From: Escherichia phage vB_vPM_PD06
Strand: one strand, 5' to 3'
Sequence record: NC_052653.1
DNA length: 64,000 nucleotides
Made by a program: the position numbers and the translations under genes. A model generated the notes under the pieces. It did no database searches and was not told the origin of the DNA. It saw only the letters and a list, made by a program, of their open reading frames with translations. Positions 11,807-52,171 of the stretch are shown here, one piece after another (the stretch's first letter is position 1; every line of letters begins with the position of its first letter).

Positions 11807-11824
11807 AAAGCTCCTAGTTGAATT

Positions 11825-13179: not shown

Positions 13180-14913
13180 TTAGTCAACCTGGATGGTTCC
13201 CATAGTACGAAGAACCTCTACATCAACACGGTTGCGGATATCAGTGAATGTTTCATCACGACCTTCTACTTGTGGTGTAATAACCTTACCATTCTTGAAG
13301 ATAACTTGTAACTCATTGTCTTCATCCTGGATATCTTTAAAAGAAAGATTATCTACAAGAGAAAGATTACCATTGGTATCATTAACAACCTTAATAAAAC
13401 CTTTTGCAGAGCGTTTACCAGGATCAGTTTTAGGCTCCTTACTTACCAAAATTTCGTGTTCACCGATGATACTACCTGTTGCTTTAACAGCAAAACCAAA
13501 AGTATCTCGTGTATTGAACTGATAAGTATAACTACCAACACCAAATACAATATTGGAAGCTGCAAAACCTTTCTTCTTCAGTCGGCGTAAGATCTCGTGT
13601 TCTCGTTCAACAGTAATAGAATCACCATAAATCATACCGATATGCTGATCAAGAACCTTGTAGCCTTTTCGGTTGATAGTACCACCAAACACTTCCCAAA
13701 GGATTTGAATAGAACCTACTGCTTCACAATAAGGAATCTCATAAGTTTCATCAATACAGTCAGCAACACTGCAATCCTGAAGAACATTGTAATACTTATT
13801 AACATCAGCCAAATGAACTACTTCAGTGGCTGTCGCAATACCATTATTTAAGAGGTCTTGATAGTTATCAAAAGATTCAACATTGTATCCTGCAACAACT
13901 TTAACCGGATCTCCTGAATCTGGACGAATAACAAGACGACCATTTCGTGACATAATGGAATCTTTCAATTCTACCAGAATGCGAGTCAATACAGCCCAAT
14001 AGTCATAAGAGTCTGCTACATATGAACAAAAACCTTCTGGAACAATTTCTTCGATATAACGACGAAGAAACTCTTTTTCTGCTACATAACGAAGCCCATC
14101 TACATCATCTTTAAGATGTGGGAAATGTTTCTTCAGATCTTCAACAATAGATCCAATGTTAGTCGTTGCTACTGAATGTTCTGTTGCCGGAATCGAACCT
14201 GCAACAAACTGATCATAATCAATACCATAATAGTCATGCACAGTTTCAATAGCCAGAATATTATCTGTTCCTGTGAACGATGCCAAGTGAGCGATACCAC
14301 TCTTATAACCATCTTCGATATTACTTAAACCACGTAGGCTAAAATCATGACACTGGAAGTTAACGTGATCAATATTATCACACGTTGCCATCGCATATGC
14401 CATAGCGATACGCTTATACTGAAAAGCTGCTGTGGCATTAGTCATTGTCTTCCAAGTTTCATCTGACAACAGTGTTTCCACATAGTTAGTTAACCAAAAG
14501 AATTTTTCTAAAGTATTATGCACAGTAAACACAGGAACACCAATAGGACACAAAACACCTTCTGGCAGAGATCGAACTTCCAGCGGAAGATAACCTAAAT
14601 CGTGCAATTCTCCCCAACATTCCGCAGAAGGAGCAGAAGCACCTAACGCATTTTTAGACATACGATAAAATTTATTTACTGCTGCACTACGAGACATTTT
14701 AAAGAAGCTATCCCACATAGTTACAAGAGCATCAGTGACTGCTCGACGAATACCTAAAACAATCACACCACGTGCTTCACGATCTGCATAGTGTGCAAAG
14801 TTTTTATCATTACGAGGAGTTAAATTAGAGAAAATAAGTTTTGTATTTTGGTTGTACATCTGCTTGTGACCAGGTTTGTACCAATCAGTAGCAAAAGGTG
14901 CAAAAATATTCAT
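13180..14913 (-). CDS. nadV: Nicotinamide phosphoribosyltransferase (NAMPT)
   Basis: 577 aa; N-terminal MNIFAPFATDWYKPGHKQMY and overall length typical of NAMPT family. Confidence 0.85.
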   Translation of the reverse strand: MNIFAPFATDWYKPGHKQMYNQNTKLIFSNLTPRNDKNFAHYADREARGVIVLGIRRAVTDALVTMWDSFFKMSRSAAVNKFYRMSKNALGASAPSAECWGELHDLGYLPLEVRSLPEGVLCPIGVPVFTVHNTLEKFFWLTNYVETLLSDETWKTMTNATAAFQYKRIAMAYAMATCDNIDHVNFQCHDFSLRGLSNIEDGYKSGIAHLASFTGTDNILAIETVHDYYGIDYDQFVAGSIPATEHSVATTNIGSIVEDLKKHFPHLKDDVDGLRYVAEKEFLRRYIEEIVPEGFCSYVADSYDYWAVLTRILVELKDSIMSRNGRLVIRPDSGDPVKVVAGYNVESFDNYQDLLNNGIATATEVVHLADVNKYYNVLQDCSVADCIDETYEIPYCEAVGSIQILWEVFGGTINRKGYKVLDQHIGMIYGDSITVEREHEILRRLKKKGFAASNIVFGVGSYTYQFNTRDTFGFAVKATGSIIGEHEILVSKEPKTDPGKRSAKGFIKVVNDTNGNLSLVDNLSFKDIQDEDNELQVIFKNGKVITPQVEGRDETFTDIRNRVDVEVLRTMGTIQVD

Positions 14914-14984
14914 AGTTATGTCTCCTTGTTTGTTAATGTGGGAGTATCTTACTAAGCATACTCCCTATTGTCAACACTTATTAT

Positions 14985-15878
14985 TTAAAAATTCCACACG
15001 TATGGAGATACAATTTGTTGTTGCAAATCTGACTGATTCTTAACAAGAACACCAGAATCTTCTTGGATGTTATCTTCCCACACATTAAGAGAATGAATGC
15101 AGTCAAAGTGCTCACTTAACTCTTTAAGACCTTTAGAAAAGATACCGTGTGTAACATATAGCTCAATCTTACCTGCGTTACGAGCACGTAGCACTTTAGC
15201 CAATTCGATAAAAGTTCTACCACCATCACAGATATCATCTACGATCATCAGGTTACGCTTATTGAAATCCTGTACAGAAATGTCTGTACGAACAATAGCA
15301 CCTGTTGCGGTATCTCTAACCTTCTCTGCACAGAACACATCTAAAGACATTTTCTTAGATAATTTAAATATTTTCTTAAGAGCACCACCATCAGGGCTAA
15401 CAAGAGCAAAATTCTCCATACGTAACTTCCACTTTAAAGTTTCGTAAGCAATCTCTTCTTGAGGCATTACACAGAGTCTGTCAAACACTGCTGGAGTAAC
15501 ATCACTATGCGGATCAGCAACGATAACACGTGAGAAATTTAATGAATTAATTATAGAAGCAAATGCTTTAACTCCGAATGCTTCCCCAGGCTCACACACT
15601 CTGTCTTGTCGTGCATACGGCACATACAACATGAGTAAATCAACACAATATGGTTTATGATATAGCATATTGTCCAATGCATTCTTAGTCATAACCAAAG
15701 TCATCAAGTCTTTAGCAGATCTTACTTCTAAAGTGAGTAAGATTCTGTCTGTAGCATGATTGAAACCTGATAGATTCGTATCTAATTGAACATGTTGTTC
15801 TCCACCAGAGAATGTAAACACTTTAACGTCTACATCAGTAACATAACAGTCAACACCATGCAGAATACTAACTTTCAT
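14985..15878 (-). CDS. prs: Ribose-phosphate pyrophosphokinase (PRPP synthetase)-like
   Basis: YARQDR motif, SPDGG, and PRPP-binding loop MIVDDICDGGRT. Confidence 0.8.
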   Translation of the reverse strand: MKVSILHGVDCYVTDVDVKVFTFSGGEQHVQLDTNLSGFNHATDRILLTLEVRSAKDLMTLVMTKNALDNMLYHKPYCVDLLMLYVPYARQDRVCEPGEAFGVKAFASIINSLNFSRVIVADPHSDVTPAVFDRLCVMPQEEIAYETLKWKLRMENFALVSPDGGALKKIFKLSKKMSLDVFCAEKVRDTATGAIVRTDISVQDFNKRNLMIVDDICDGGRTFIELAKVLRARNAGKIELYVTHGIFSKGLKELSEHFDCIHSLNVWEDNIQEDSGVLVKNQSDLQQQIVSPYVWNF

Positions 15879-18781: not shown

Positions 18782-19332
18782 TGTTTATTACAAGTGATTT
18801 GCATTTTATGCACAAACGTATTCGAGAGTTTGCTCCTGAATATCGCCCGTGGGAAGATATGGAGCATATGACAGAAGCACTGATTGAAGCATGGAATAAA
18901 TGTGCTACGAGTCCTGGTGTCAAGATGTGGCATTTGGGCGACTTCTGTTTCGGGACTGAAGAAGATACCCGTAAAATTGCTTCACGTCTTCAAGGTGATA
19001 TCACTTACTGTGTTGGGAACCATGATTACAGCAAACACCGAGAAGTGCTTGCAGAATATGGCGAGGTGGTGTATTATGACGAAGTGAAATATCAGAAACT
19101 GTTCTTCGTCTTAAGTCATTACCCTATGGCTGCTTGGAATAAACAAGGGCATGGATCAATCATGCTACACGGGCACTCTCACGGATCATTCCCTGATCAT
19201 TTGTATGGGAAAATGTTGGATGTTGGTTGGGATGCACACGGAAAAATCTTGCATTTTGACGAAATCATCTCTATTATGGATAAGCGTGATATTGTTGTTG
19301 TAGACCATCATAAGATAATCAAAGGAGATTAA
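18781..19332 (+). CDS. Calcineurin-like metallophosphoesterase
   Basis: Motifs SDLHFMH, GDFCFG, GNHD, then His-rich HGHSHG. Confidence 0.7.
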   Translation: MFITSDLHFMHKRIREFAPEYRPWEDMEHMTEALIEAWNKCATSPGVKMWHLGDFCFGTEEDTRKIASRLQGDITYCVGNHDYSKHREVLAEYGEVVYYDEVKYQKLFFVLSHYPMAAWNKQGHGSIMLHGHSHGSFPDHLYGKMLDVGWDAHGKILHFDEIISIMDKRDIVVVDHHKIIKGD

Positions 19333-19333
19333 G

Positions 19334-20266
19334 GTGGCTAAGTTCAATTGTGATGACCTGATTGCAAAAGGTTTAGTGCATAAAAAAGAAGTTAAATCTG
19401 GAGAGTATGCTGGTCTTGCTGTACTTAAATACAAAAACAATGTATTCTGGGATAACTTGTGGAACGTTGACAAACGACTCCTAGATTGTCGTGGGTTGGT
19501 TGTTGACTCAGAAGACAATGTTGTTATCTGGCCTTTTACTAAAATCTTTAATCGTTTTGAGAATGGTACAGATCTTCCAGCAGACCAGCTTGTAGATGCT
19601 GTCCGTAAAGTAAACGGTTTTATGGCATCTGTAGGTGTGTACAAAGGGCAACTTATTGTATCAACAACAGGGAGCCTAGAGTCAGATTTTGCAACTCTTG
19701 CCAAGAACCATATTGTTTCCGAGTGTGATGACATAGAATATTTCATTAAGTGGACAGAAAGTGCAAAAGCAACTTTCCTTTTTGAAATCTGTGATCCTTC
19801 TGATCCACATATTGTCGAAGAAGAACCAGGCGCATACTTAATTGGAGCAAGAATTCAAAATCTTGATGGGACAAGTTTCATGCTACCCGAAGGTGTGCTT
19901 GATGGGATTGCATCTATTACAAAATTTAAACGTCCTGAAGTTTATCCGATGATTAAATTTTCAGATGTTGTTGAAATGTCTAAACATTGTAAGCACGAAG
20001 GGTTTGTTGTTCGGGAAACAAACTATCCGTTTAACTTGCTGTTAAAGATTAAGTCACCATATTATCTTGCTAAGAAATTCCTTATGCGTGGTGGCAATAA
20101 GAAGTGGGATATGATTTGGGACAACCCAAAAAATGCTAAACAAATTGTTGACGAAGAATATTATACTTTGCTAGAATGGCTTCGAAACAACTTTACTAAG
20201 ACTCAATGGGCTGCTTTAGATCCACAAGAGCGACGTAAAGAAATAGAAAACTTCTTTGGAGGCTAA
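19334..20266 (+). CDS. Polynucleotide ligase, RNA-ligase-like
   Basis: Nucleotidyltransferase motifs: I VRKVNGF (KxNG), IV HEGFVVRE, V LLKIKSPYY; GTG start with GGAG upstream. Confidence 0.6.
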   Translation: MAKFNCDDLIAKGLVHKKEVKSGEYAGLAVLKYKNNVFWDNLWNVDKRLLDCRGLVVDSEDNVVIWPFTKIFNRFENGTDLPADQLVDAVRKVNGFMASVGVYKGQLIVSTTGSLESDFATLAKNHIVSECDDIEYFIKWTESAKATFLFEICDPSDPHIVEEEPGAYLIGARIQNLDGTSFMLPEGVLDGIASITKFKRPEVYPMIKFSDVVEMSKHCKHEGFVVRETNYPFNLLLKIKSPYYLAKKFLMRGGNKKWDMIWDNPKNAKQIVDEEYYTLLEWLRNNFTKTQWAALDPQERRKEIENFFGG

Positions 20267-20671
20267 ATGAAACAACTTATCATTTTACGTGGTGTTTCAG
20301 GTGCAGGTAAATCTACAGTAGCAGAAATTATTTCTGAAGGTTATTGGCCTATCTGTGAGGCAGATCAATATCATTACACAGAAAGTGGTGTTTACGATTG
20401 GAAGCCAGAGAATGTAGGTAAAGCACACGCATGGTGTCAGAGTATTGTTCGTGATGCTATGGTATCTAATATTAAAAAGATTATTGTCTCTAACACTTCA
20501 ACCACAGAGAAAGAACTTAAACCTTATTTAACTCTTGCTGAAGAGTTTGGTTATCAAGTTATCTCCTTAGTTGTTGAAAATAGGCACGGTAACGACTCAA
20601 TTCATGAGGTTCCACAACATACTCGTGATCAGCAAGAGAAACGTCTTCGCAGTTCACTTAAGCTACAATAA
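20267..20671 (+). CDS. P-loop kinase, polynucleotide-kinase-like
   Basis: Walker A GVSGAGKST near N-terminus; 134 aa; start abuts ligase stop. Confidence 0.6.
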   Translation: MKQLIILRGVSGAGKSTVAEIISEGYWPICEADQYHYTESGVYDWKPENVGKAHAWCQSIVRDAMVSNIKKIIVSNTSTTEKELKPYLTLAEEFGYQVISLVVENRHGNDSIHEVPQHTRDQQEKRLRSSLKLQ

Positions 20672-35740: not shown

Positions 35741-35938
35741 ATGATGCTAGATCAACTGATCAATGCTCCTCGCGTAACAGTAAGTCCAAAAACATTTGCA
35801 TCACTTTTAGAAGATGCTAGAGAGGTTTATAACTTTACTGAAGAAGAGCTTCCTGTTCCTGTTGAAAAAGGTTCCAGATGGTTGTTTTATGAAGGTATTA
35901 TTTTTACTGAAGGGAATAATTGGAAGGAGACTAAATGA
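35741..35938 (+). CDS. Hypothetical protein
   Basis: ATG at 35741 with GGAGGA upstream; 65 aa. Confidence 0.4.
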   Translation: MMLDQLINAPRVTVSPKTFASLLEDAREVYNFTEEELPVPVEKGSRWLFYEGIIFTEGNNWKETK

Positions 35939-36924
35939 AATACTTAGTAACAGGTGGTTTAGGCTTTATTGGAAGTGCGGTAGTTCGTTTCCTAGCTAAA
36001 AATACTAAGAATGATATTTACGTTATAGATAAATGGGGTTACGCTTCAGACCCTAGAAATTTATCAGAAACACCTAATGTAAAGTTTTGTCGTGTTGACT
36101 TGACAAATGCTCAGTTAACTGCTAAGATTGTGGCAGATGTTAACCCAGATTATATAATGCATCTTGCAGCAGAAAGTCACGTAGATAATTCAATAGCATC
36201 ACCGAGTGTTTTTATAAATTCAAATATTGTTGGAACATTTAATCTTCTAGAAGCTGTTCGTTTAATGGGAGATAAATCAAATCTTAAAATGTTTCATCAT
36301 ATTTCAACAGATGAAGTGTATGGTGATATGGAAGAAGGGGATTATCCGTTTACAGAACAGAATCCTTATAAACCAAGTAGTCCATATGCTGCATCTAAAG
36401 CTGCAAGCGATCATTTGGTAAGAGCGTGGCATCGTACTTATGGTATTCCGACAGTTATAACAAATTGTTCAAATAATTTTGGAGCGTATCATCATCCAGA
36501 AAAACTAATACCTAAAACGATAACAAATATCTTGATGCATAAACCAATCCCTGTTTATGGCAATGGTCTTCAAGTAAGAGACTGGCTATACGTTGACGAT
36601 CACGCAGAAGCATTACACCTAGTAGTAACTAAAGGCAAATCTGGAGAAACATATAATATTGGGAGCAGAAACCCTAGAACTAATATTGATGTAATCTATA
36701 TGATTTGTGATTATATGGATGCGGTATATCCATCTGAAACAGATGCTTGTAGCCTCATTGAGATGGTTACAGATAGGCCTGGGCATGATCTAAGATATGA
36801 AGTGAATCCTTATAAGATTGAAAAGGAATTAGGGTGGAAAGCTAAAGGCACATTTGAAGAAAAACTTTATTCAACCATTGATTGGTATGTAGATAACAAA
36901 GAGTGGTGGGAAAATAAAGTTTAA
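35935..36924 (+). CDS. rmlB: dTDP-glucose 4,6-dehydratase
   Basis: N-terminal TGGLGFIGS Rossmann motif, catalytic YAASK, STDEVYG. Confidence 0.85.
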
Positions 36925-36932
36925 GGAGGAGT

Positions 36933-37802
36933 ATGAAAGGTATTATCTTAGCAGGTGGTAGTGGAACAAGACTTTACCCAGTTACTAAAGGGGTTAGTAA
37001 ACAACTATTACCAATTTATGATAAGCCTATGATTTATTATCCACTCTCTGTCCTAATGCTTTCTGGAATTAGGGAAATACTAATAATTACAACACCAGAA
37101 GATCAAATTAATTTTGTAAATCTTCTAGGTGATGGTTCTTCTTTTGGTATTTCCCTACAGTATGCAATACAGGATAGTCCAAGAGGTTTAGCAGAAGCGT
37201 TTATTATTGGTGAGAACTTTATTGGTGAAGATTCTGTAGCACTTGTGCTAGGTGATAATTTATTCTTTGGTCAGAGTTTTGGTAGCATTTTAGATTCTGC
37301 TAAAGAACATATTGAAAAGAATGGTGGAGCTAATATTTTTGGGTATCACGTAAATGATCCTGAAAGATTTGGTGTTGTTGAGTTTGATTCTGAAGGTACA
37401 GTGGTAAGTATTGAAGAAAAACCAAAAGCACCAAAAAGCAACTATGCAATTACAGGCTTGTACTTTTACGATAATTCTGTTATACAGAAAGCTAAAAGCG
37501 TTAAGCCTTCTGCTAGAGGGGAGTTAGAGATTACAGATATAAATGAGATGTACTGGAAAGAAAAGGCTTTACGTGTCTGTAAGCTAGGAAGAGGTTTCAC
37601 TTGGCTGGATACAGGAACACATGAAAGTCTTATGGAAGCATCTCAATTTGTTCATGCAATAGAAAAGCAACAAGGTATGAAGGTTGCATGCCTAGAAGAG
37701 ATTGCTTTTAAAAATGAATGGATTACTTTAGATTCTGTAAAAAGTTCTGGAGAGGTTTTAAGTAAAACAGACTACGGCAAGTATTTACTTAAATTAAAAT
37801 AA
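36933..37802 (+). CDS. rmlA: Glucose-1-phosphate thymidylyltransferase
   Basis: N-terminal [16 protein letters not shown] and [18 protein letters not shown]. Confidence 0.9.
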
Positions 37803-37814
37803 GGGGGAGATTAA

Positions 37815-38369
37815 ATGATTCAAGCAACAAAAATCGAAGATTTGTTGATCATTCAACCTGACGTTTACGGGGATGAACGTGGTTTTTTCTTAGAAAGTTT
37901 TAATCAGGCTTTATATGATCAATACATAGGTAAACAAAACTTTGTCCAAGATAACCATTCACGTTCTATTCGAGGAGTTCTACGTGGGCTTCATTTTCAA
38001 AAGAAAAACCCACAAGGGAAGTTAGTACGTTGTGTTCGTGGTGAAGTTTATGATGTTGCTGTAGATATTAGGGTTGGTAGTCCAACATTTGGAGAATGGG
38101 TAGGTGTTCTTTTATCTGAAAAGAATAAAACACAATTTTGGATTCCTCCTGGTTTCGCTCATGGCTTTGTTGTGATTAGCGACATTGCTGATTTTGAATA
38201 TAAATGTACAGAATATTACGATCCGACTTCAGAGTGTAGTCTTGCGTGGAATGATCCAGATATCAATATAGATTGGGGTTTTGATTTAATCTTTAATGAT
38301 ATTAATTTTAAACCTATCTTGTCACAAAAAGATCAGGAAGCCAAAACACTAAAGGAGATCATATTTTGA
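37815..38369 (+). CDS. rmlC: dTDP-4-dehydrorhamnose 3,5-epimerase
   Basis: DERGFFLESF, RGLHFQ, WIPPGFAHGF cupin motifs; 184 aa. Confidence 0.85.
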   Translation: MIQATKIEDLLIIQPDVYGDERGFFLESFNQALYDQYIGKQNFVQDNHSRSIRGVLRGLHFQKKNPQGKLVRCVRGEVYDVAVDIRVGSPTFGEWVGVLLSEKNKTQFWIPPGFAHGFVVISDIADFEYKCTEYYDPTSECSLAWNDPDINIDWGFDLIFNDINFKPILSQKDQEAKTLKEIIF

Positions 38370-39196
38370 CAAAATTTTTAATCTTTGGTTCAAAAGGTCA
38401 ATTAGGACAATCTTTGGCAAAAGTTGCACCAGAAGATGTTATTTTGATTGAAGCAAGTGATATAGACATTACCAACTTTAAAGATGTTATGAATAGTCTT
38501 GTACAGCACGTGCCTGATGTTGTTGTGAATTGTGCGGCTTACACGGCAGTAGATAAAGCTGAAGAAGATGTTAACACCTGTATAAATGTTAATGCATACG
38601 GTGCAACAAACATTGCCAAAGCATGTAATGATTTACTGATACAGTTTGTACATATTTCAACAGACTATGTTTTTGATGGACATGTTGCTGGCACAGAAGA
38701 GAGTAAAACAAACCCCTTGAACACCTACGGTTACAGTAAACAATTAGGTGAAACTTTAGTACAAGCAGTTTGTCCTACAGCACTTATTATCAGAACAGCT
38801 TCTGTTTATAGTGAATTTGGACATAACTTTTTGAAAACTATGTTGGAACGCTACAACGGTGGTCAAAAAGAATTTAATGTAGTATGTGATCATTTATCAT
38901 GTCCTACTTATGCACCTGATCTTGCAGAAACAATTTTTAAACTTGTAAAAGATGGTGTAAATAGTAAAATTGTACACTATGCAGGTGCAGATTATATTTC
39001 TTGGTATGATTTTGCACGTAAGATATTTCTTGTTATAGATTTGTCTGTTACAGTTAATCCTGTATCTGCTTCAACCTATAATTCTAAAGCAGTCAGACCA
39101 GCAACATCTTATTTAAAAACAGATCCTACTTTAAATCCGCGAAGTGTTGATAGCGGTATTGTAAGAACTTTAACTATACTTTTAAACAAGGAGTGA
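38366..39196 (+). CDS. rmlD: dTDP-4-dehydrorhamnose reductase
   Basis: N-terminal LIFGSKGQLGQ, NCAAYTAVDKAE, STDYVFDG; TTG start overlapping rmlC stop. Confidence 0.8.
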   Translation: MTKFLIFGSKGQLGQSLAKVAPEDVILIEASDIDITNFKDVMNSLVQHVPDVVVNCAAYTAVDKAEEDVNTCINVNAYGATNIAKACNDLLIQFVHISTDYVFDGHVAGTEESKTNPLNTYGYSKQLGETLVQAVCPTALIIRTASVYSEFGHNFLKTMLERYNGGQKEFNVVCDHLSCPTYAPDLAETIFKLVKDGVNSKIVHYAGADYISWYDFARKIFLVIDLSVTVNPVSASTYNSKAVRPATSYLKTDPTLNPRSVDSGIVRTLTILLNKE

Positions 39197-39198
39197 AA

Positions 39199-39459
39199 AT
39201 GAATTTTATTATCTACGGTAAACCAAATTGTCCTTTCTGCACTAACGCTAAGACTCTACTGGAACAGCGTGAACAGGATTTTAAATATCTTACCTTAGAT
39301 GAAGACTATTCTTTAGATCAGATTCAGAATCTGGTTTTAGAGAAAACAGGTGTTCTGCCACGTACCTTTCCTCAAATTTTTGTGGAAGATGGTGAACATC
39401 TAACCCACGTAGGAGGTTTTTCTGAACTACGTGAATTCATGGCTCAGATTGCGGAGTAA
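39199..39459 (+). CDS. Glutaredoxin-like protein (NrdH/Grx-type)
   Basis: CPFC active site in MNFIIYGKPNCPFCTNAK; AAGGAG 5 nt upstream. Confidence 0.75.
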   Translation: MNFIIYGKPNCPFCTNAKTLLEQREQDFKYLTLDEDYSLDQIQNLVLEKTGVLPRTFPQIFVEDGEHLTHVGGFSELREFMAQIAE

Positions 39460-43567: not shown

Positions 43568-44230
43568 ATGAAGTTTGTACTGTATCATCGACTTTCTAAG
43601 AAGAAACAACAAGGCAACCAGTATGGTATAGAATCACAGGAAGCAGATATCCAACGCTTCCTGGATTCACAAGAAAACTATACTATTGTAGGTAGCTTTG
43701 CAGAGTTTTATTCTGGTAAAGGCGATTGGAAGCAACGTAGAGAGCTTGTAAAAGCTGTTAATCTTTGCAAAGAAACAGGTGCTACACTTGTTGTTGCTAA
43801 GGTTGACCGTCTTGGACGTAACACAGCTTCTGTTGCAACCTTGTTAGAGATGATTAATGTACGGATAGCAACTATGCCCTCCGCTGAAAATATGATAATA
43901 AATATTTTAGCAGTTCTGGCAGAAGAAGAGGCTCGTGCAATATCTGATCGTGTTAAGAAGAGCCTTAAGGTAGCAAAAGCGAAGGGAACGCTTCTTGGTG
44001 CAGCAAACCCTAAATACAAAAGAACAGATTATACGAAAACGGAAGAAGCAAAACGCTCAAAAGAGTTTGCGCTTTCTTTAAAAGATTCTTTAGTTGCATA
44101 CAGAGCTTGTAAAACGCCATATATGACGATTGCAAAGCATCTGAATGAATCAGGAAAGAGAACTATTCGTGGGAGTTTGTTCGATGCCAAAGCGGTACAA
44201 CGTCTTTGTGCAAAATTGAATATTAAATAA
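43568..44230 (+). CDS. Serine recombinase (resolvase/invertase family)
   Basis: Catalytic region YHRLSKKKQQGNQYGIESQ, LVVAKVDRLGRN, C-terminal HTH-like tail; 220 aa. Confidence 0.75.
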   Translation: MKFVLYHRLSKKKQQGNQYGIESQEADIQRFLDSQENYTIVGSFAEFYSGKGDWKQRRELVKAVNLCKETGATLVVAKVDRLGRNTASVATLLEMINVRIATMPSAENMIINILAVLAEEEARAISDRVKKSLKVAKAKGTLLGAANPKYKRTDYTKTEEAKRSKEFALSLKDSLVAYRACKTPYMTIAKHLNESGKRTIRGSLFDAKAVQRLCAKLNIK

Positions 44231-44454: not shown

Positions 44455-45027
44455 ATGCGTTTAGCTTTTAACGGGAAGATAAGCACAGCAAACATATTGT
44501 CAGCAGTAGGATTATTAGGTAAAAAATTTACACCTTTCAGTTTACCAGTTTGTGTAGATTTTGATCATGTGTTCGATATTAATAATCCTTCACGTTGTAT
44601 CGCCAGAAGTAATATTGATAACCCAAGTGAAAATCTGTTTTATATTACTAAACCATCCCAGGCAATTTTGAATCAATGGGAAGCAGGTCTGATTAAACCA
44701 GGTAAATATTTTGCATTACTACCTTGTAAATCATTGGCTATAGAGGACAGTCTAAACTATGCAAACAATCTTGTTGTTACAGCATTCATTGTCTCAGAAA
44801 AAGAAGAAACTGCGGCACTTGCAAATACTGTTAAATCTTTGTATGATGCTTTGGGTGTTACTTACACTACATTCGTTTGTGAAGATATTCCACATTGCGT
44901 TGAATTTGTAGTAAATGGTGTAACTGTATGTCGTGTAGAAACAACGCAAGATGAGGACGTTTTTATTACTGTAGCCGATGTAATATCTGAACCTGTGTTT
45001 AGTTACGCAGTTTCATTAACACATTAA
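44455..45027 (+). CDS. Hypothetical protein
   Basis: 190-aa ORF. Confidence 0.5.
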   Translation: MRLAFNGKISTANILSAVGLLGKKFTPFSLPVCVDFDHVFDINNPSRCIARSNIDNPSENLFYITKPSQAILNQWEAGLIKPGKYFALLPCKSLAIEDSLNYANNLVVTAFIVSEKEETAALANTVKSLYDALGVTYTTFVCEDIPHCVEFVVNGVTVCRVETTQDEDVFITVADVISEPVFSYAVSLTH

Positions 45028-45037: not shown

Positions 45038-45364
45038 ATGAAAATAACGACAGAACAGGCTTTAATAGACAAAGGAAGGGAAATCTTAGAAAGTCATTTG
45101 GAGGATATTCAAAGGACTCCAGGGTATCTCGGCTGGCGTATACAAGAAGCCGTCGATTTTCTACCCCGCAAAAATAAAGAGATTGAGGTAAGATCTCTAT
45201 TCCTCCTTGTTAAAGTAGATGGTGACGCTATATATAAAGATGTAGCGTCTCACATTGAACAAATAGAAGAAAAAGCCTACAAAGAATTTGCAGATCTTGT
45301 TGTAGAACATAATATAGAAGGTAAAGTTAATATCTTTATACTTATGGATTTTGAGGAGATTTGA
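45038..45364 (+). CDS. Hypothetical protein
   Basis: 108-aa ORF. Confidence 0.45.
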   Translation: MKITTEQALIDKGREILESHLEDIQRTPGYLGWRIQEAVDFLPRKNKEIEVRSLFLLVKVDGDAIYKDVASHIEQIEEKAYKEFADLVVEHNIEGKVNIFILMDFEEI

Positions 45365-46107
45365 TGCTAGTATATCAAGAAATTAGTGTAAAAGATGATC
45401 AAGACCTGTTTATTATTGGTGATTTACATGGTTGCTTTGATTTATACCAGAAAGGTGTTAATACTTTAGGTATCCGAGATCAAGATGTTGTTGTATCTTT
45501 AGGAGATCTTACAGATCGCGGCAAGCAGAATTTTCGTTGTACCGTTGAATTCACCAGAAAACTAAATCGCTATGCTATTCGTGGAAATCACGAAGATATG
45601 ATGATTAAAGGGTTGCTAGAAGGTGATAGGCGATATTACGAATGTTGGTTTCAGAACGGAGGCCATACAGTTCTAAACGAGTGTGGAGAAGAAGGTGCAA
45701 CTGCTCTTGCTTTGATGCTAGAAGACTTACCTGTTGTACTTGTTGTCAATTATCGTAATATGAAACTAGGCTTTATTCACGGTGGATATCCTTCAGTTTT
45801 GGAACATTTACCAGTGACAGAAGTTTTGCCATTTTGTTTGAATATGGATAAAGAGCAAGTTTCTCGATTCACAGAATCTTTAATGTGGGATCGTGATATG
45901 ATAGATTGCGCACTTGAAGGGATTCTTCTTCCTAGAGTTTCAGGAGTAGATTATGTATTTCACGGGCATTCTTATGTTCCTAAACCTGTAATTAGCAGTA
46001 ATAGGGTATATATGGATACTGGGTCTGTGTTCAATGGTAATTTAACCTTTGCATATTTTGATGATTCAAATACGTTACAATTTTATTCTACTTTAGAGGA
46101 GGACTAA
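45364..46107 (+). CDS. Ser/Thr protein phosphatase-type metallophosphatase
   Basis: GDLHGCFD, GDLTDRG, RGNHE motifs. Confidence 0.7.
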   Translation: MLVYQEISVKDDQDLFIIGDLHGCFDLYQKGVNTLGIRDQDVVVSLGDLTDRGKQNFRCTVEFTRKLNRYAIRGNHEDMMIKGLLEGDRRYYECWFQNGGHTVLNECGEEGATALALMLEDLPVVLVVNYRNMKLGFIHGGYPSVLEHLPVTEVLPFCLNMDKEQVSRFTESLMWDRDMIDCALEGILLPRVSGVDYVFHGHSYVPKPVISSNRVYMDTGSVFNGNLTFAYFDDSNTLQFYSTLEED

Positions 46108-46415
46108 TGTATAAAGTCACAATTAAAGAGACGGTAGGGAATATTACGAAAGAAACTACTATTGAAACGGAAGACGTTGAGTTAGTCAAAGAGCTTTTAT
46201 TTCCAAAATCAGAAATAAAAGATAATGACGAACAGTTGGATGAAGATAACGATACAGCAAGGGATAAATGGAAGAAACAACTAGCGGAGATTTGGAAAAA
46301 GCCTCAAGTAACGCCTCCATTTGATCCTCGTACACCTTATAACCCTTGGGAAATTGGAAGCCCTTGGTATACGTATCCTATTAATCCAATTGTTACTCCC
46401 AGTATTACTTGTTAA
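46107..46415 (+). CDS. Hypothetical protein
   Basis: 102-aa ORF. Confidence 0.4.
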   Translation: MYKVTIKETVGNITKETTIETEDVELVKELLFPKSEIKDNDEQLDEDNDTARDKWKKQLAEIWKKPQVTPPFDPRTPYNPWEIGSPWYTYPINPIVTPSITC

Positions 46416-46425
46416 GGAGAAAACC

Positions 46426-47004
46426 ATGAGCGATTTATTCTACACAGGTGTTGGTAGCAGAGATATTACAGACGAAGAATGGGACACTATGGTAGCTGTT
46501 GCAAAATGGTTATCTACATGGTTCATTTTGCGATCTGGTAAAGCAGAAGGTGCAGATTCCGCATTTGAATGCGGGGTATATGATAGTGGAAATAATACAA
46601 AGAAAGAAATATACATTCCTTGGCCTTCGTTTAAAGGTAATGAGATAGAGGGAGAGGTTATTGTTCTTGACAGACCAGATAGTGTAAACTATGCTCTAAC
46701 CTTGCAATATGCAAAAGAATTGCATCCGGCTTGGGACAGATTATCTCAAGGTGCTAAAAAATTACATCAAAGGAATATCCACCAAGTTCTTGGCAAAGAT
46801 CTTGAGAATCCAAAACCGTCTTGTTTTCTTTTAGCTTGTGCAAATACAGATAAAAATGGAGATCCTTTGGGTGGTACAAGAACAGCTTGGATGTTGGCTA
46901 AAAAGTTTAATGTTCCTTGTTTTAATATTCGAGGTAAAAGTAAAAAACAAATCTTTGAATTTATTAAACCTATTTTAGAGGAGAATGGTCTTGTCCAGAA
47001 ATAA
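46426..47004 (+). CDS. DprA/Smf-like (SLOG superfamily) protein, tentative
   Basis: ATG at 46426 with AAGGAG upstream; YTGVGSRD and RSGKAEGADSAFECG resemble DprA/LOG nucleotide-binding motifs. Confidence 0.4.
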   Translation: MSDLFYTGVGSRDITDEEWDTMVAVAKWLSTWFILRSGKAEGADSAFECGVYDSGNNTKKEIYIPWPSFKGNEIEGEVIVLDRPDSVNYALTLQYAKELHPAWDRLSQGAKKLHQRNIHQVLGKDLENPKPSCFLLACANTDKNGDPLGGTRTAWMLAKKFNVPCFNIRGKSKKQIFEFIKPILEENGLVQK

Positions 47005-47763: not shown

Positions 47764-47767
47764 TATA

Positions 47768-47790
47768 AACCCGCTTCGGCGGGTTTTTTG
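47768..47790 (+). terminator. Rho-independent terminator
   Basis: AAACCCGC-TTCG-GCGGGTTT followed by TTTTG. Confidence 0.8.
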
Positions 47791-47846: not shown

Positions 47847-48260
47847 ATGTATTATAGTGACTATTTTGTAAACCCAACAAAAGAACAACTTCAATCAGCA
47901 GTGGATAAGATGCAGATTGTAGTTAAAGAATGTGAGAAAATAAAAAAACAACTACAAGAAGAGACTGTTGTTGTTAGTAAATGGTTTGGTCTTAGAAAGA
48001 AGGTTGTTAGTAAACACAATATCATCCTGGAAAAAGCAAAAACGACAGGAACTAGTTACGCCTTACAAGGTTGGTTGCTAAATTACATTGATATAGAACA
48101 ACATTCTCTTCTGCACTGTTGGCTTCACAGTCCTAGTATTGAGGATCTCTTGTTCTGGTTATCGTGTGAATCTGTACTTTTAAATGAAAATGAGGCTTAC
48201 CGTTTAAACTTCTGCCTCAAGGCAGAATTACCAGCTAGTGTTAAGGAGAAGAAGCAATAA
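47847..48260 (+). CDS. Hypothetical protein
   Basis: 137-aa ORF with GGAG upstream. Confidence 0.45.
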   Translation: MYYSDYFVNPTKEQLQSAVDKMQIVVKECEKIKKQLQEETVVVSKWFGLRKKVVSKHNIILEKAKTTGTSYALQGWLLNYIDIEQHSLLHCWLHSPSIEDLLFWLSCESVLLNENEAYRLNFCLKAELPASVKEKKQ

Positions 48261-49249
48261 TGAAAGTTTTAAGTCTTTTTGATGGTATGTCAGGAGGAAT
48301 GCTTGCGCTAAAAAGTGCAGGTATTGAAGTAGATACATATTATGCTTCAGAATTAGACAAATTCGCCATAGCTGAAAGCCAAGCAAATTTTCCAGATATT
48401 ATTCAGTTAGGTGATGTTACAAAATGGAGAGAATGGGATATTCCGTGGGGAGAAATTGATCTTTTGTTAGGTGGTAGTCCGTGTCAAGGCTTCTCTTCTT
48501 CTGGTAAGGGTTTGAACTTTCAAGATCCGCGATCTAAACTGTTCTTTGAATATGTTGAAATTCTTGAACATATTAAAAAGTTTAACCCTAATGTTAAGTT
48601 CATGCTTGAAAACGTTAAGATGAAGGTGGAGTGGGAAAACGTGATCACAAGTTACTTAGGTGTTGATCCCGTATTCATTAACTCCGCAGATTTCACGGCA
48701 CAGAATAGACAACGTTTATACTGGTGCAATTGGGAAATAAAACCCTGGGCTATTACCAATGAAGTATTGCAAGATATTATCGAAGATGATAGTATTGTAG
48801 ACAGAGATAAGGCGTATTGCATAGATGCAAATTATGCTAAAGGTGGTAATATAGAACAGTATTTTGAAAAGAGTCGTAGACAACTAGCTTTTTATCCGGC
48901 AGCAATATATGGGCGTAGAATTAATGAAAATGGCAAACGTAGTACATCTAAAGCTGATCGTTTGGTACATTGCTTGGAAGTTCAGGACAGTGAAAAAACT
49001 CGTTGCCTCACGACTGTGCCGAAAGACGTACTATTAGCTTACATTCCACCTGGAAGATATCTGGATGCCTTTGAAAAATTGAGTGAAGGTGTGCATTATA
49101 GAAAGTTAACGGTTAAAGAGTGTTGCCGCTTACAAGGTGTTCCAGATGATTACTTTAAAGTGAGTAGTAACACACAAGCCTATAAGATGTTAGGTAATGG
49201 TTGGACTATACCTGTCATTGCACATATTCTTAAGTGTATGGAGGAATGA
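48260..49249 (+). CDS. dcm: DNA cytosine-5 methyltransferase
   Basis: Motif I LFDGMSGG, motif IV GGSPCQGFS, motif VI ENV; 329 aa. Confidence 0.8.
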   Translation: MKVLSLFDGMSGGMLALKSAGIEVDTYYASELDKFAIAESQANFPDIIQLGDVTKWREWDIPWGEIDLLLGGSPCQGFSSSGKGLNFQDPRSKLFFEYVEILEHIKKFNPNVKFMLENVKMKVEWENVITSYLGVDPVFINSADFTAQNRQRLYWCNWEIKPWAITNEVLQDIIEDDSIVDRDKAYCIDANYAKGGNIEQYFEKSRRQLAFYPAAIYGRRINENGKRSTSKADRLVHCLEVQDSEKTRCLTTVPKDVLLAYIPPGRYLDAFEKLSEGVHYRKLTVKECCRLQGVPDDYFKVSSNTQAYKMLGNGWTIPVIAHILKCMEE

Positions 49250-49372: not shown

Positions 49373-49984
49373 ATGACTCAAAAAGTTGCATATCAAGTAG
49401 ATCGTGAAGATGGTGAAGGTAGTGTTGTAGTTTTTGATACACATGGTCTTGCAGCAAGACGCAAAGGCGCTTGTATGCTGGACATTGGTGGTGAAGATGA
49501 ATACTGCACTGTACGTAGAGTAAAAGAATTTGATCAATACGCTGAAAAAGGTTTTGTACCTGCGAAAGCACTATTAGAAGCTGGATGGTGGATACCTAGC
49601 GCACATGATTATGATATTTTGGAATCAGATACAGACGATTTTAACAGTGAGAATTTTGTTTTTTCTCTGGATGAAAAATGCGTTTGGAAAGATTGGGATG
49701 AAATGGAACGCCATGCTTATTTTATAAACGAAGCATTAGATCGTAAAACTTGGTTTGAGAATACAGTTAAAGCAGCGTATCCTCAATTTACTTTTACAGA
49801 ATTTTGGGGTGGCCCACACCATATTACTCATGTGGCATACTTCGAGTTCCCAGGCTCACGCTATAAAGGTACTGTCTATTGGGATTGGGACGAGGACAAA
49901 GAACCTTCTGCTCAAGACTTCCGTTGCTATGTTTGTCAAGGTGATCAAGAAGCCCTTGACAAGTACCTTAAAAGTCTGGTATAA
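49373..49984 (+). CDS. Hypothetical protein
   Basis: 203-aa ORF. Confidence 0.5.
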   Translation: MTQKVAYQVDREDGEGSVVVFDTHGLAARRKGACMLDIGGEDEYCTVRRVKEFDQYAEKGFVPAKALLEAGWWIPSAHDYDILESDTDDFNSENFVFSLDEKCVWKDWDEMERHAYFINEALDRKTWFENTVKAAYPQFTFTEFWGGPHHITHVAYFEFPGSRYKGTVYWDWDEDKEPSAQDFRCYVCQGDQEALDKYLKSLV

Positions 49985-50001
49985 TCCGTAAAACTTAACC
50001 A

Positions 50002-50026
50002 AAGCCCCAAGCAGGGGCTTTATTTG
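50002..50026 (+). terminator. Rho-independent terminator
   Basis: AAGCCCC-AAGC-AGGGGCTT followed by TATTTG. Confidence 0.65.
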
Positions 50027-50038: not shown

Positions 50039-50569
50039 ATGGGTTTTGATGACATGTTATTATATGAGGAGGCTTGTGTGAAAGAAGCTATGGCTTTACC
50101 AGTTTTATCTATTGATATTACAACAGTAGACACTTTTTCAGATTGTGAAACGTGTGGATCGTATTCGTCTATTGTACATGAAGTTAGTGGGGATTTAGGC
50201 ACTTACGAAGATGGAGATTATGCAAGTTGTTTAGGTGATAATCGAGATGGTGAAGTGGCGAATGTTGCAAACTGGATTGCTTCTAAGTTAAAAGAAAGAA
50301 ATCGTCCGTTCCCTAATCTTCTTACACCAGAAGCTATGCTTAAAGCTGAACAAGAGATGTATGATTATGGTCATAAAGTAGATTATGACTATAATGATCC
50401 TAAATATAAAAAATTGAGTGACAAGTATTGGGAACTAGCTAATGCTTATGATAAATACTACTCTACAGAAAACATTGTTAAATTGTTTTTAGATTTTGGA
50501 GTAGAAATTAATTGGGATTTCGAAGAGGAAGAGCGTTACGACGCATCTTCTTGGGATGATGATTACTAA
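50039..50569 (+). CDS. Hypothetical acidic protein
   Basis: ATG at 50039 with GGAGGA upstream; Asp/Glu/Tyr-rich. Confidence 0.45.
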   Translation: MGFDDMLLYEEACVKEAMALPVLSIDITTVDTFSDCETCGSYSSIVHEVSGDLGTYEDGDYASCLGDNRDGEVANVANWIASKLKERNRPFPNLLTPEAMLKAEQEMYDYGHKVDYDYNDPKYKKLSDKYWELANAYDKYYSTENIVKLFLDFGVEINWDFEEEERYDASSWDDDY

Positions 50570-50580
50570 GAGGATATTGA

Positions 50581-51393
50581 ATGCGAAGAGTAATTTTTGT
50601 TAGTGGCGCAGGTTTAAGTGCAGACAGTGGGATTCGAACGTTCCGAACAGACACAGATAGTGGTCGTGCCTTATGGGAAGAATATGACTTAGAAGAGGTC
50701 TGCGATATTGGAGCTTTCCAAGCAGGTTATCGTGTGAGAACATCTCCAGATCTTCCAGTGGTCGGTGGTGTAGACGAGAACGGTATGGACTTATATGCCA
50801 AAACACACGAATTTTATAACAAAAGACGTGTTGAGCTTAAAGATGTACAACCTAATGCTGCACATATTCAAATAGCAAAGTGGTTTAAGGAATATCCTAA
50901 CCAAGTAGTAAACTTGACAACAAACGTCGATGATCTACTAGAGCGAGCAGGTGTGGACAGGGATTCTGTTATTCACGTGCACGGGTATCTCCCTGAAGTA
51001 GTTTACCGTATGCATCCTGGAGATTACAAAACACTGGTAGACATTGGTTACAATAGTATAAACATAGATGATTATAACTGGGTGAAGCCTAATGTTGTAT
51101 TTTTTGGTGAGGCTGCACCTTTGTATGCAGATATGGCTCACTTGTTTGATACTTTGACCATGCAAGATTTGGTTGTTGTAGTAGGATGTTCAAACCAAGT
51201 TATCAATTTTAATTGGGAATTATTCCCTGCACTTACTATGGGTACAAAAATGATTGTTGTTAACCCAGGAATTAATTACGAAGAAACTCTTCTTTACGAA
51301 GATAGAGGAGTCTTTGTTTATAGAGAAAAGGCAGCAGATGCTTTTAGCAATCCTGCTTTCATAAAAATGATAGAAGATCATTTGACTAAGTAA
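50581..51393 (+). CDS. Sir2 (sirtuin) family NAD+-dependent enzyme
   Basis: VIFVSGAGLSADSGIRTFR, TTNVDDLLERAG, HVHG, VVFFGE, VVVVGCS; no CxxC zinc module seen. Confidence 0.8.
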   Translation: MRRVIFVSGAGLSADSGIRTFRTDTDSGRALWEEYDLEEVCDIGAFQAGYRVRTSPDLPVVGGVDENGMDLYAKTHEFYNKRRVELKDVQPNAAHIQIAKWFKEYPNQVVNLTTNVDDLLERAGVDRDSVIHVHGYLPEVVYRMHPGDYKTLVDIGYNSINIDDYNWVKPNVVFFGEAAPLYADMAHLFDTLTMQDLVVVVGCSNQVINFNWELFPALTMGTKMIVVNPGINYEETLLYEDRGVFVYREKAADAFSNPAFIKMIEDHLTK

Positions 51394-51400: not shown

Positions 51401-51423
51401 AAGGGGCGAAAGCCCCTTTTCTT
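51401..51423 (+). terminator. Rho-independent terminator
   Basis: AAGGGGC-GAAA-GCCCCTTTT. Confidence 0.7.
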
Positions 51424-51760: not shown

Positions 51761-51797
51761 AAAAGCCCCTAGAAGTGATTCTAGGGGCTTTATTTTA
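51761..51797. terminator. Bidirectional rho-independent terminator between convergent blocks
   Basis: AGCCCCTAG-AAGTGATT-CTAGGGGCT flanked by A-run upstream and T-run downstream. Confidence 0.7.
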
Positions 51798-52144: not shown

Positions 52145-52171
52145 TACAAGAAAACCCGCCGAAGCGGGTTT
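52145..52171 (-). terminator. Rho-independent terminator
   Basis: AAACCCGC-CGAA-GCGGGTTT hairpin with T-run following in minus sense. Confidence 0.65.

What the first reader, a model, noticed from the sequence alone, without database searches (positions are those of the whole stretch)
50039..51393. Sir2 (sirtuin) homolog with an acidic upstream partner, in a genome that also carries NAD+ salvage genes
The 50581-51393 ORF has the hallmark sirtuin NAD+-binding and catalytic motifs (GAGLSADSGIRTFR, TNVDDLLERAG, HVHG, VVFFGE, VVVVGCS) but no obvious CxxC zinc module. Sir2 domains are best known in bacteria as NAD+-depleting defence effectors; a phage-borne copy could modify proteins, or dampen host Sir2/TIR signalling. 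The preceding gene (50039-50569) is strongly acidic, which may indicate a DNA-mimic or partner protein.
Basis: partly seen in the sequence, partly recalled or inferred. Interest (0 to 1): 0.7.

Follow-up and report, generated by a model that had tools for sequence, protein, structure and literature searches.

The report
Zinc-less phage sirtuin with acidic partner
This is a real, apparently active NAD+-using sirtuin enzyme gene from a family already annotated in about a thousand lytic phage genomes (including T5 and phi92), co-transcribed here with a lineage-specific acidic protein of unknown fold; its presence is not new, but nobody has yet shown what it does.

Summary
ORF 50581-51393 encodes a 270-aa sirtuin (Pfam SIR2, E 1e-22) with every NAD+-binding and catalytic residue intact and no zinc cysteines. 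ORF 50039-50569 is the most acidic sizeable protein in the window (pI 4.1, net charge -25).

The window is a phi92/Justusliebigvirus-type E. coli phage. The Sir2 is 99-100% identical to already annotated genes. It belongs to a phage-only clade (PHROG 2162, the T5.102 family; 981 phage records; none found in 185,579 cellular genomes). The clade is marked by zinc-module loss plus a Gln-to-Thr change in the QNxD motif. By sequence and fold it is closest to CobB/SIRT5-type deacylases, not to ThsA, DSR or SIR2-HerA defence NADases, but it fails every curated CobB cut-off.

The "NAD+ salvage genes" are the NARP1 counter-defence operon type. The acidic protein has three invariant cysteines and no known fold. 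It shares a conserved promoter-to-terminator unit with the Sir2, but only in Stephanstirmvirinae.

Function is untested. Most likely it is a protein deacylase (about 0.4). The main rival is a published prediction of RNA 2'-phosphate removal (about 0.3). The family and its zinc loss are already described. Interest is moderate.

The parts
49956..49985 (+). Sigma-70-type promoter TTGACA-18-TATAAT (12/12, with TG extension), embedded in the 3' end of the preceding ORF; drives the acidic gene and the Sir2
   Evidence: Both hexamers are conserved in EmilieFrey, phAPEC8, KKP 3954 and Citrobacter Tr1.
50001..50021 (+). GC-rich hairpin (terminator-like) between the promoter and the acidic gene. It is either the terminator of the upstream genes or a 5'-UTR stem-loop.
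   Evidence: The hairpin is kept with different stem sequences in other genera.
50039..50569 (+). Acidic protein of 176 aa (pI 4.1, net -25) with invariant C36-x2-C39 and C64. PHROG 9509, function unknown. Confidently folded alpha/beta protein with no known fold relative.
50570..50593 (+). Remnant of the conserved acidic C-terminal tail (EDIECEE). It is cut off here by TAA 50567-50569. In the 184-aa variant it is translated and overlaps the Sir2 start codon.
   Evidence: compare P0121
50581..51393 (+). Zinc-less sirtuin (270 aa) of the phage-specific Thr-for-Gln clade, with an intact active site. Key residues: G9-A-G, F21, R22, Y79/R82, N115, D117, H134, F175-G-E, N228.
51401..51418 (+). Intrinsic terminator 8 nt after the Sir2 stop codon; closes the two-gene unit
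   Evidence: conserved in Phapecoctavirus
13180..15878 (-). Context only, not part of the unit: NARP1-type operon (Prs-like Adps at 14985-15878 and Nampt-family Namat at 13180-14913). These are the 'NAD+ salvage genes' of the finding.
   Evidence: Osterman et al. bioRxiv 10.1101/2024.02.11.579819

Best explanation
Shown: ORF 50581-51393 encodes a single-domain sirtuin of a phage-restricted clade that has lost the Cys4 zinc site but keeps the fold of the small domain and every residue needed to bind NAD+, release nicotinamide and complete a sirtuin reaction. That includes the Tyr-x-x-Arg pair that, in class III sirtuins (CobB, SIRT5), recognises negatively charged acyl groups. It is transcribed from its own strong host-type promoter as a two-gene unit with an acidic, cysteine-triad protein.

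Inferred: early in infection the enzyme uses NAD+ to remove acyl groups (acetyl, or more likely succinyl/malonyl-type) from lysines of host or phage proteins, giving nicotinamide and O-acyl-ADP-ribose. This would reset host protein acylation in the phage's favour. The acidic protein is probably a lineage-specific regulator, targeting subunit or substrate of the enzyme. The phage's NARP1 operon could offset the NAD+ cost, but it is not functionally tied to the Sir2.
For: All catalytic and NAD+-binding positions align with CobB and Sir2Tm and are invariant in 58 clade members, Y79 and R82 included. The best sequence matches among solved structures are CobB, Sir2Af, Sir2Tm and SIRT5. The AF2 model has pLDDT 91, and its top structural matches are CobB (TM 0.84), Sir2Af1/2, SIRT5 and SIRT2, all deacylases. 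NCBIfam hits are only deacylase models. No defence-Sir2 model matches. Every biochemically characterised PF02146 sirtuin with His plus YxxR that I know of is a lysine deacylase (established knowledge). The promoter-gene-gene-terminator module is conserved across genera, and the two genes overlap in Phapecoctavirus.
Against: No member of this clade has been assayed. The substrate cleft is remodelled: the zinc module has no metal, the canonical V-Y-P loop is V-I-N-F-N-W, and the near-universal Gln of QNxD is Thr. All of this could mean a non-peptide acceptor. In several other lineages the gene sits among RNA-end-processing genes (PMC9503650). All CobB models score far below their cut-offs. The partner role rests only on operon structure within one subfamily.
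Confidence: 0.4

Rival explanations
1. RNA-repair enzyme, as predicted by Iyer, Burroughs, Anantharaman and Aravind (2022). The sirtuin would transfer ADP-ribose from NAD+ to a 2'-phosphate on cleaved or religated RNA, as Tpt1/KptA does, and so help the phage repair tRNAs cut by host anticodon nucleases.
For: In rV5-like phages the orthologue lies between an Rnl1-type RNA ligase plus a cREC-like gene and faces a polynucleotide kinase and a phosphoesterase. T5 has a HAD-type phosphatase three genes downstream. Divergent clade members sit next to cREC + Metallophos, RlaP + NADAR + HD and PTH2 + RNase T-like. The remodelled cleft and the invariant Tyr/Arg anion-binding pair are compatible with a phosphate acceptor (inference). 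This phage encodes the ligase, kinase and phosphoesterase trio at 18781-20671.
Against: In this window the Sir2 is about 30 kb from the RNA-repair trio, in a separate transcription unit. Rnl1-type ligase is found in only 15 Salmonella phage records against 289 with this Sir2, so most T5-like carriers lack it. Clustering of early auxiliary genes in lytic phages is weak evidence. No sirtuin has ever been shown to act on RNA.
Confidence: 0.3
2. NAD+ hydrolase or interference with host NAD+-based immunity. The phage Sir2 would deplete or reroute NAD+, or blunt host Sir2/TIR signalling.
For: Sirtuin chemistry always begins with nicotinamide cleavage. The phage carries NARP1, which rebuilds NAD+ from ADPR and nicotinamide.
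Against: There is no similarity to defence NADase Sir2 families by HMM or by fold. A lytic phage that needs NAD+ and invests in NARP1 gains nothing obvious from destroying it. Namat/Nampt genes occur in 2028 phage records, many in taxa without this Sir2, so the two are not coupled. No sensor or effector domain is attached.
Confidence: 0.08
3. The acidic protein is not a Sir2 partner. It would be an independent early anti-defence protein (for example a DNA mimic or other decoy) that merely shares a promoter with the Sir2.
For: It has the lowest pI in the window. It evolves much faster than the Sir2: 35-39% against 65-69% identity between genera. Its family is confined to 134 records. In Erwinia jumbo phage pEa_SNUABM_12 its homologue is not within 4 kb of any Sir2. 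The unit has an early-type promoter.
Confidence: 0.3

Closest known systems
Phage sirtuin clade: PHROG 2162, T5 gene T5.102, phi92 gp038, rV5/Mydo/KVP40-type 'Sir2-like protein'
   Same: Direct membership: PHROG E 2e-105; 100% identical to phage Nernie, 98.9% to phi92 gp038, 52% to T5, 48% to rV5-like. It shares the zinc-less small domain noted for KVP40 and phiSt2 (PMC5107563) and falls in the 'distinct clade' of viral sirtuins of Iyer et al. (PMC9503650).
   Different: Here the gene is not in an RNA-repair neighbourhood. It is paired with an acidic cysteine-triad protein found only in Stephanstirmvirinae and a few jumbo phages, and it carries an insert of about 26 aa (residues ~46-72) that many clade members lack.
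E. coli CobB / human SIRT5 (class III sirtuin lysine deacylases)
   Same: Best match among solved structures by sequence (E 1e-18) and by fold (TM 0.84). Same GAG...SGIxxFR, PNAAH, NxD, HG and FGE motifs, and the class III Tyr-x-x-Arg pair.
   Different: About 26% identity. Scores are 86-106 bits against NCBIfam cut-offs of 243-320. No zinc cysteines, Thr for Gln in QNxD, VIN for VYP. Phage-only distribution. CobB joins the tree only at a deep node.
Defence-associated SIR2 NADases (ThsA, DSR1/DSR2, SIR2-HerA/Nezha, SIR2-APAZ/pAgo)
   Same: Rossmann-type Sir2 superfamily, uses NAD+, and lacks a zinc module.
   Different: No PADLOC or Pfam SIR2_2 match. No fused or adjacent sensor (SLOG, HerA, pAgo, large C-terminal domain). 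None appear among the top 50 structural matches.
Tpt1/KptA RNA 2'-phosphotransferase
   Same: Proposed functional analogue (Iyer et al. 2022): NAD+-dependent ADP-ribosyl transfer to an anionic oxygen, and linkage to RNA ligase and kinase genes in some phages.
   Different: Unrelated fold. The analogy is a prediction only, and the linkage is absent in this window.
NARP1 (Adps + Namat) of phage Bas63 and relatives
   Same: The window's Prs-like + Nampt-like pair has the NARP1 architecture and is 97-98% identical in DNA to the operons of BASEL phages Bas60-62.
   Different: It lies 35 kb away on the opposite strand and is far more widely distributed than the Sir2. It is context, not part of the Sir2 unit.

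Membership tests
Sirtuin / Pfam SIR2 (PF02146) | Profile match above the curated gathering score | tested here: met
   81 bits against a cut-off of 24, E 1.3e-22
Sirtuin / Pfam SIR2 (PF02146) | NAD+-binding and catalytic residues: GAG, SGIxxFR, N and D of QNxD, catalytic His of HG, FGE, GxS, C-terminal Asn | tested here: met
   All align with CobB and Sir2Tm and are invariant in 58 clade members. The only departure is Gln to Thr at position 114.
Sirtuin / Pfam SIR2 (PF02146) | Cys4 zinc-binding module in the small domain | tested here: not met
   0 Cys in the 40-residue segment where CobB and Sir2Tm have 4. The AF2 model keeps the beta-hairpin without metal ligands.
Sirtuin / Pfam SIR2 (PF02146) | Two-domain sirtuin fold | tested here: met
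   AF2 pLDDT 91, pTM 0.88. Foldseek E 2e-16 and TM 0.84 to CobB 1S5P.
CobB (NCBIfam equivalogs and subfamily for NAD-dependent protein deacylase) | Score at or above the curated cut-off | tested here: not met
   Best scores are 106 against 243 (NF001753) and 86 against 320 (NF040867)
CobB (NCBIfam equivalogs and subfamily for NAD-dependent protein deacylase) | Class III Tyr-x-x-Arg acyl-recognition pair | tested here: met
   Y79 and R82 align with the CobB YNARR motif and are invariant in the clade
CobB (NCBIfam equivalogs and subfamily for NAD-dependent protein deacylase) | Lysine deacylase activity | not testable with these tools
   Needs enzyme assays. No published assay of any clade member was found.
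Defence-associated SIR2 (ThsA, DSR, SIR2-HerA, SIR2-APAZ) | Match to defence SIR2 profiles (PADLOC; Pfam SIR2_2) | tested here: not met
   The only PADLOC hit is a 37-residue stretch to PDC-S65 at 13.8 bits. No SIR2_2 hit.
Defence-associated SIR2 (ThsA, DSR, SIR2-HerA, SIR2-APAZ) | Fused or adjacent sensor/partner domain (SLOG, HerA, pAgo, C-terminal sensor) | tested here: not met
   Single-domain 270-aa protein. Neither neighbour matches any such family.
SirTM (macrodomain-linked ADP-ribosylating sirtuins) | Operon with a macrodomain gene | tested here: not met
   No macro domain in the flanking ORFs
Phage 'RNA-repair' sirtuin clade (Iyer et al. 2022) / PHROG 2162 | Sequence membership with the rV5, Mydo and T5-like prototypes | tested here: met
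   PHROG 2162 E 2e-105. 48-56% identity to rV5-like, Mydo and T5. Inside the zinc-less/Thr clade.
Phage 'RNA-repair' sirtuin clade (Iyer et al. 2022) / PHROG 2162 | Neighbourhood of RNA ligase, kinase, cREC, HAD, 2H or Nudix genes | tested here: not met
   In this window the ligase, kinase and phosphoesterase genes lie at 18781-20671, about 30 kb away. The feature is met in rV5-like, P0128 and P0132 contexts.
Phage 'RNA-repair' sirtuin clade (Iyer et al. 2022) / PHROG 2162 | 2'-phosphotransferase-like activity on RNA | not testable with these tools
   This is a prediction only (PMC9503650, section 3.7.3)
DNA-mimic anti-restriction proteins (Ocr, ArdA type), for the acidic ORF | Very high negative charge | tested here: met
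   pI 4.10, net -25 over 176 aa
DNA-mimic anti-restriction proteins (Ocr, ArdA type), for the acidic ORF | Fold or sequence similarity to a known mimic | tested here: not met
NARP1 (context genes 13180-15878) | Adjacent Prs-family and Nampt-family genes | tested here: met
   PF14572/PF00156 and PF04095. 97-98% DNA identity to the operons of BASEL phages EmilieFrey, JohannJBalmer and PaulScherrer. Architecture as defined.

The most novel reading that the evidence does not exclude
The zinc-less phage sirtuin works as a two-subunit ('split') enzyme. The co-transcribed acidic protein, with its invariant CxxC...C triad, would be a metal-binding subunit that gates, targets or structurally complements a Sir2 that lost its own zinc module. 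This would give the phage a switchable NAD+-dependent modifier of host proteins or RNA. One hint of recurrence: in an unrelated phage contig a 57-aa Zn-ribbon gene sits 10 nt upstream of another zinc-less clade member.
Probability: 0.1. Interest if true: 0.65.

Novelty: already known. Interest (0 to 1): 0.38.

Why it matters
Hosts use NAD+ depletion, often through Sir2 domains, to stop phages, and phages answer with NAD+-rebuilding pathways. Yet about a thousand sequenced lytic phages, including T5, phi92, rV5 and KVP40 relatives, carry their own NAD+-consuming sirtuin whose substrate is unknown. Finding that substrate would show one of two things: that phages rewrite host protein acylation, or that sirtuins can act on nucleic acids. 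The question is directly testable because near-identical phages (BASEL Bas60-62, phi92, T5) are genetically tractable. The finding itself adds no new family. What it adds is a sharper definition of the clade (zinc loss plus Gln-to-Thr, phage-only) and a lineage-specific operon partner.

Tried and rejected
1. The label 'putative aminoacyl-tRNA synthetase' for the acidic ORF (EmilieFrey annotation). It rests on a sub-threshold PhetRS_B1 hit (14.8 bits against 26.8, E 0.034), and the other ORF with that label (44455-45027) is unrelated. Rejected.
2. Hidden homology between the acidic protein and the Sir2 neighbours in T5 (T5.100) or the rV5-like phage (bas53_0210, bas53_0208). hhalign probabilities were below 3%.
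3. A cREC-like gene next to the kinase in this window. None was found.
4. A PADLOC hit to PDC-S65 (E 0.0066, 37 residues). Dismissed as noise.
5. Relatives in cellular genomes. A scan of 185,579 species genomes with the clade motifs found none.
6. Obligate coupling to Nampt/Namat. Rejected, because Namat is in 2028 records, many in taxa without this Sir2.
7. Obligate coupling to Rnl1. Weakened by the Salmonella and T5-like phages.
8. AFDB fold search. The library was unavailable, so BFVD was used instead.
9. A guessed accession for Bas63 (MZ501085) was the wrong record.
Full report
**Observation.** The two ORFs are real and lie where stated. It matches Pfam SIR2 at E 1.3e-22 (81 bits, cut-off 24) and PHROG 2162 'Sir2' at E 2e-105. 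It also matches the solved structure of E. coli CobB at E 1e-18. ORF 50039-50569 (+) encodes 176 aa with pI 4.10 and net charge -25. That is the lowest pI among 57 ORFs of at least 120 aa in the window. ATG 50039 follows a GGAGGA ribosome-binding site and is the likely start.

**Source genome.** The window is 98% identical to Justusliebigvirus phages of E. coli such as AV123, EmilieFrey (BASEL Bas61) and phi92 (Stephanstirmvirinae, about 146 kb). In these records the gene is already annotated as a Sir2/sirtuin. The protein is 100% identical to that of phage Nernie and 98.9% to phi92 gp038.

**Is the enzyme intact?** I aligned it with 142 relatives plus CobB and Sir2Tm. Every NAD+-binding and catalytic position is conserved:
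- G9-A-G, S13, S16-G-I, F21-R22
- P91-N92 and H95
- N115 and D117
- the catalytic H134-G135
- F175-G-E177, G202-x-S204 and N228

The class III Tyr-x-x-Arg pair (Y79, R82; CobB YNARR) is also present. All of these are invariant across 58 clade members, which indicates purifying selection on catalysis.

**What differs from canonical sirtuins.**
- The 40 residues between HG and KPNVVF contain no cysteine, whereas CobB and Sir2Tm have four.
- The Gln of the near-universal QN[IV]D motif is Thr.
- The V-Y-P substrate loop reads V-I-N-F-N-W.
- There is an insert of about 26 residues in the small domain.

Among the representatives, zinc loss and the Thr substitution go together: 41 of 59 zinc-less sequences carry Thr, against 8 of 84 zinc-containing ones (Fisher p 5e-14; the sequences are related, so this is not an independent sample). 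The AF2 model (pLDDT 91, pTM 0.88) keeps the beta-hairpin of the former zinc module.

**Placement.**
- A neighbour-joining tree puts the protein inside a 48-member clade. That clade is entirely zinc-less and has no Gln at position 114.
- The nearest sisters still have zinc but already carry Thr. E. coli CobB joins only at a deep node.
- Clade members whose contigs are informative are all phage-like: this window, T5, rV5-like, and representatives P0128, P0129, P0132 and P0136.
- Two zinc-containing Gln relatives lie among housekeeping genes such as FolD/PurE/PurC/PurD and IMPDH/SmpB.
- A scan of one genome from each of 185,579 bacterial and archaeal species with the clade's signature motifs found no relative. 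tblastn finds the gene in 981 phage records, mainly Escherichia, Salmonella, Klebsiella and Vibrio phages.
- NCBIfam matches only deacylase models, all far below their curated cut-offs: 106 against 243 bits, and 86 against 320.
- No PADLOC defence-Sir2 model and no Pfam SIR2_2 model match.
- The 50 best structural matches are all deacylases: CobB (TM 0.84), Sir2Af1/2, SIRT5, SIRT2 and Sir2Tm.

So this is a phage-specific offshoot on the CobB/class III side of the family. It is neither housekeeping CobB nor a defence NADase.

**Prior knowledge.**
- T5.102 has been annotated as Sir2 in the T5 genome record.
- Skliros et al. 2016 (PMC5107563) noted in silico that the KVP40 and phiSt2 phage Sir2 proteins lack the zinc site, and proposed deacetylation of acetyl-CoA synthetase.
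- Iyer et al. 2022 (PMC9503650) described most viral sirtuins as a distinct clade. From neighbourhoods in phages BF, rV5/Mydo and SP15 they predicted a Tpt1/KptA-like role in removing RNA 2'-phosphates.
- I found no biochemical or genetic test of any member.

**Testing the RNA-repair context.**
- In favour: the rV5-like orthologue sits between an Rnl1-type ligase with a cREC-like gene and a DNA ligase, facing a kinase and a phosphoesterase. T5 has a HAD-type phosphatase (DIDGVLN motif) nearby. Divergent members neighbour cREC + Metallophos, RlaP + NADAR + HD, or PTH2 + RNase T-like genes.
- Against: in this window the metallophosphoesterase, Rnl1-like ligase and kinase are at 18781-20671, about 30 kb away in another unit.
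- Also against: Rnl1-type ligases occur in only 15 Salmonella phage records, against 289 carrying this Sir2. The large T5-like group therefore lacks that ligase.

The hypothesis remains a serious rival but is not established.

**NAD+ genes.** The genes at 13180-14913 (Nampt family) and 14985-15878 (Prs-like), both on the - strand, have the NARP1 architecture. Osterman et al. showed that such pairs are ADPR-pyrophosphate synthetase (Adps) plus nicotinamide ADPR-transferase (Namat). Together they rebuild NAD+ from ADPR and nicotinamide to defeat NAD+-depleting defences. The window's pair is 97-98% identical to the operons of three BASEL phages. Namat/Nampt genes occur in 2028 phage records, many from Staphylococcus, Mycobacterium and Listeria phages that lack this Sir2. 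The co-presence is therefore not a specific coupling, although NARP1 could recycle the Sir2's by-products.

**The acidic neighbour.**
- It belongs to PHROG 9509 (function unknown).
- The family is small: 134 phage records, and 19 clusters among 5.8 billion proteins. It is confined to Stephanstirmvirinae and some jumbo phages (Erwinia/Serratia BF-like, RaK2).
- C36-x2-C39 and C64 are invariant. Most homologues end in an EEEECQ[DE][DE] tail.
- In this window a TAA at 50567-50569 removes that tail. In the 184-aa variant the tail's codons overlap the Sir2 ATG.
- AF2 predicts a compact alpha/beta protein (pLDDT 87.5, pTM 0.76), with the CxxC at a beta-hairpin turn.
- It is not related to the Sir2 neighbours in T5 or rV5-like phages.

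**Operon structure.**
- A perfect TTGACA-18-TATAAT promoter lies at 49956-49985, followed by a hairpin at 50001-50021.
- A terminator at 51401-51418 begins 8 nt after the Sir2 stop.
- Promoter hexamers, hairpin and terminator are conserved in Phapecoctavirus and Citrobacter phage Tr1.
- In those phages the two genes abut or overlap: by 16 nt in phAPEC8 and by 1 nt in KKP 3954.
- This supports co-expression and probably translational coupling within the subfamily.
- In Erwinia phage pEa_SNUABM_12, however, the family member has no Sir2 within 4 kb.
- The acidic protein also diverges far faster than the Sir2: 35-39% against 65-69% identity between genera.

**Mechanism and confidence.**
- It is near certain that this is an expressed, catalytically competent NAD+-consuming sirtuin of a phage-only clade.
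- The acceptor is unresolved. I commit to lysine deacylation of host or phage proteins as most likely (about 0.4). The reasons are the intact deacylase residue set, the class III Tyr/Arg pair and the closest structural relatives.
- RNA 2'-phosphate ADP-ribosyl transfer follows at about 0.3, and NADase or signalling interference at about 0.08.
- The acidic protein is either a lineage-specific regulator or subunit, or an unrelated early anti-defence protein. I cannot separate these two.

**Verdict.** The gene family, its zinc loss and its phage specificity are already in the literature and the databases, so novelty is low. What remains interesting is the untested function of a very widespread phage enzyme, together with the uncharacterised cysteine-triad partner.

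Noticed in passing
window 13180-15878 (- strand): A Prs-like plus Nampt-family gene pair with the architecture of the NARP1 (Adps + Namat) NAD+-reconstitution counter-defence operon. It is 97-98% identical to the operons in BASEL phages Bas60-62.
   Followed up: partly
window 18781-20671 (+ strand): RNA-repair trio: calcineurin-like phosphoesterase (18781-19332), T4 Rnl1-like RNA ligase (19334-20266) and a kinase-only PNK-like protein (20267-20671). It lies about 30 kb from the Sir2.
   Followed up: partly
window 9377-12432 (- strand): Cluster of 15 tRNA genes, including two tRNA-Met(cat), two Leu and two Ser.
   Followed up: no
window 45361-47004 (+ strand): A calcineurin-like metallophosphoesterase (45361-46107) lies two genes upstream of a DprA/SLOG-like protein (46426-47004; PHROG 768). 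SLOG-type domains are linked to nucleotide and ADPr-signal processing, so this could be a counter-signalling pair.
   Followed up: no
window 48260-49249 and 43568-44230 (+ strand): A Dcm-like C5 cytosine methyltransferase (Pfam E 1e-43) and a serine resolvase-family protein (Pfam E 8e-22), both in a lytic phage.
   Followed up: no
window ~35900-39200 (+ strand), by synteny with EmilieFrey bas61_0211-0214: A full rmlABCD-like dTDP-rhamnose synthesis set is annotated in the near-identical phage. This is unusual cargo and might serve DNA or surface modification. I did not verify it in the window itself.
   Followed up: no
window 47767-47786 (+), 52152-52171 (-) and 51762-51791: An identical 20-nt hairpin, AAACCCGCTTCGGCGGGTTT, occurs twice on opposite strands. 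A 13-bp bidirectional terminator marks the point where the + and - gene blocks converge, where the GC skew flips near 52 kb.
   Followed up: no
window 50567-50593: The acidic ORF ends at a TAA that is a sense codon in the 184-aa variant. The downstream 24 nt still encode the conserved acidic tail EDIECEE and overlap the Sir2 start codon.
   Followed up: yes
L011:4818-4991 and L010:6732-7181 (metagenomic phage contigs): In other zinc-less clade members a 57-aa Zn-ribbon (FmdB-like) gene sits 10 nt upstream of the Sir2 (P0129). In another (P0132) a NADAR-domain gene follows the Sir2 directly, with an RlaP gene upstream.
   Followed up: partly
GenBank records MG065639, MG065645, MG065656 and MG065689: Records labelled 'Campylobacter phage' are about 98% identical to these E. 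coli phages, so the host labels look doubtful.
   Followed up: no
L003:3340-3720 (phage T5 gene T5.100): T5 also has a very acidic protein (pI 4.09, net -17) with four Cys at the head of the operon that contains its Sir2. It shows no detectable homology to the acidic protein here.
   Followed up: partly
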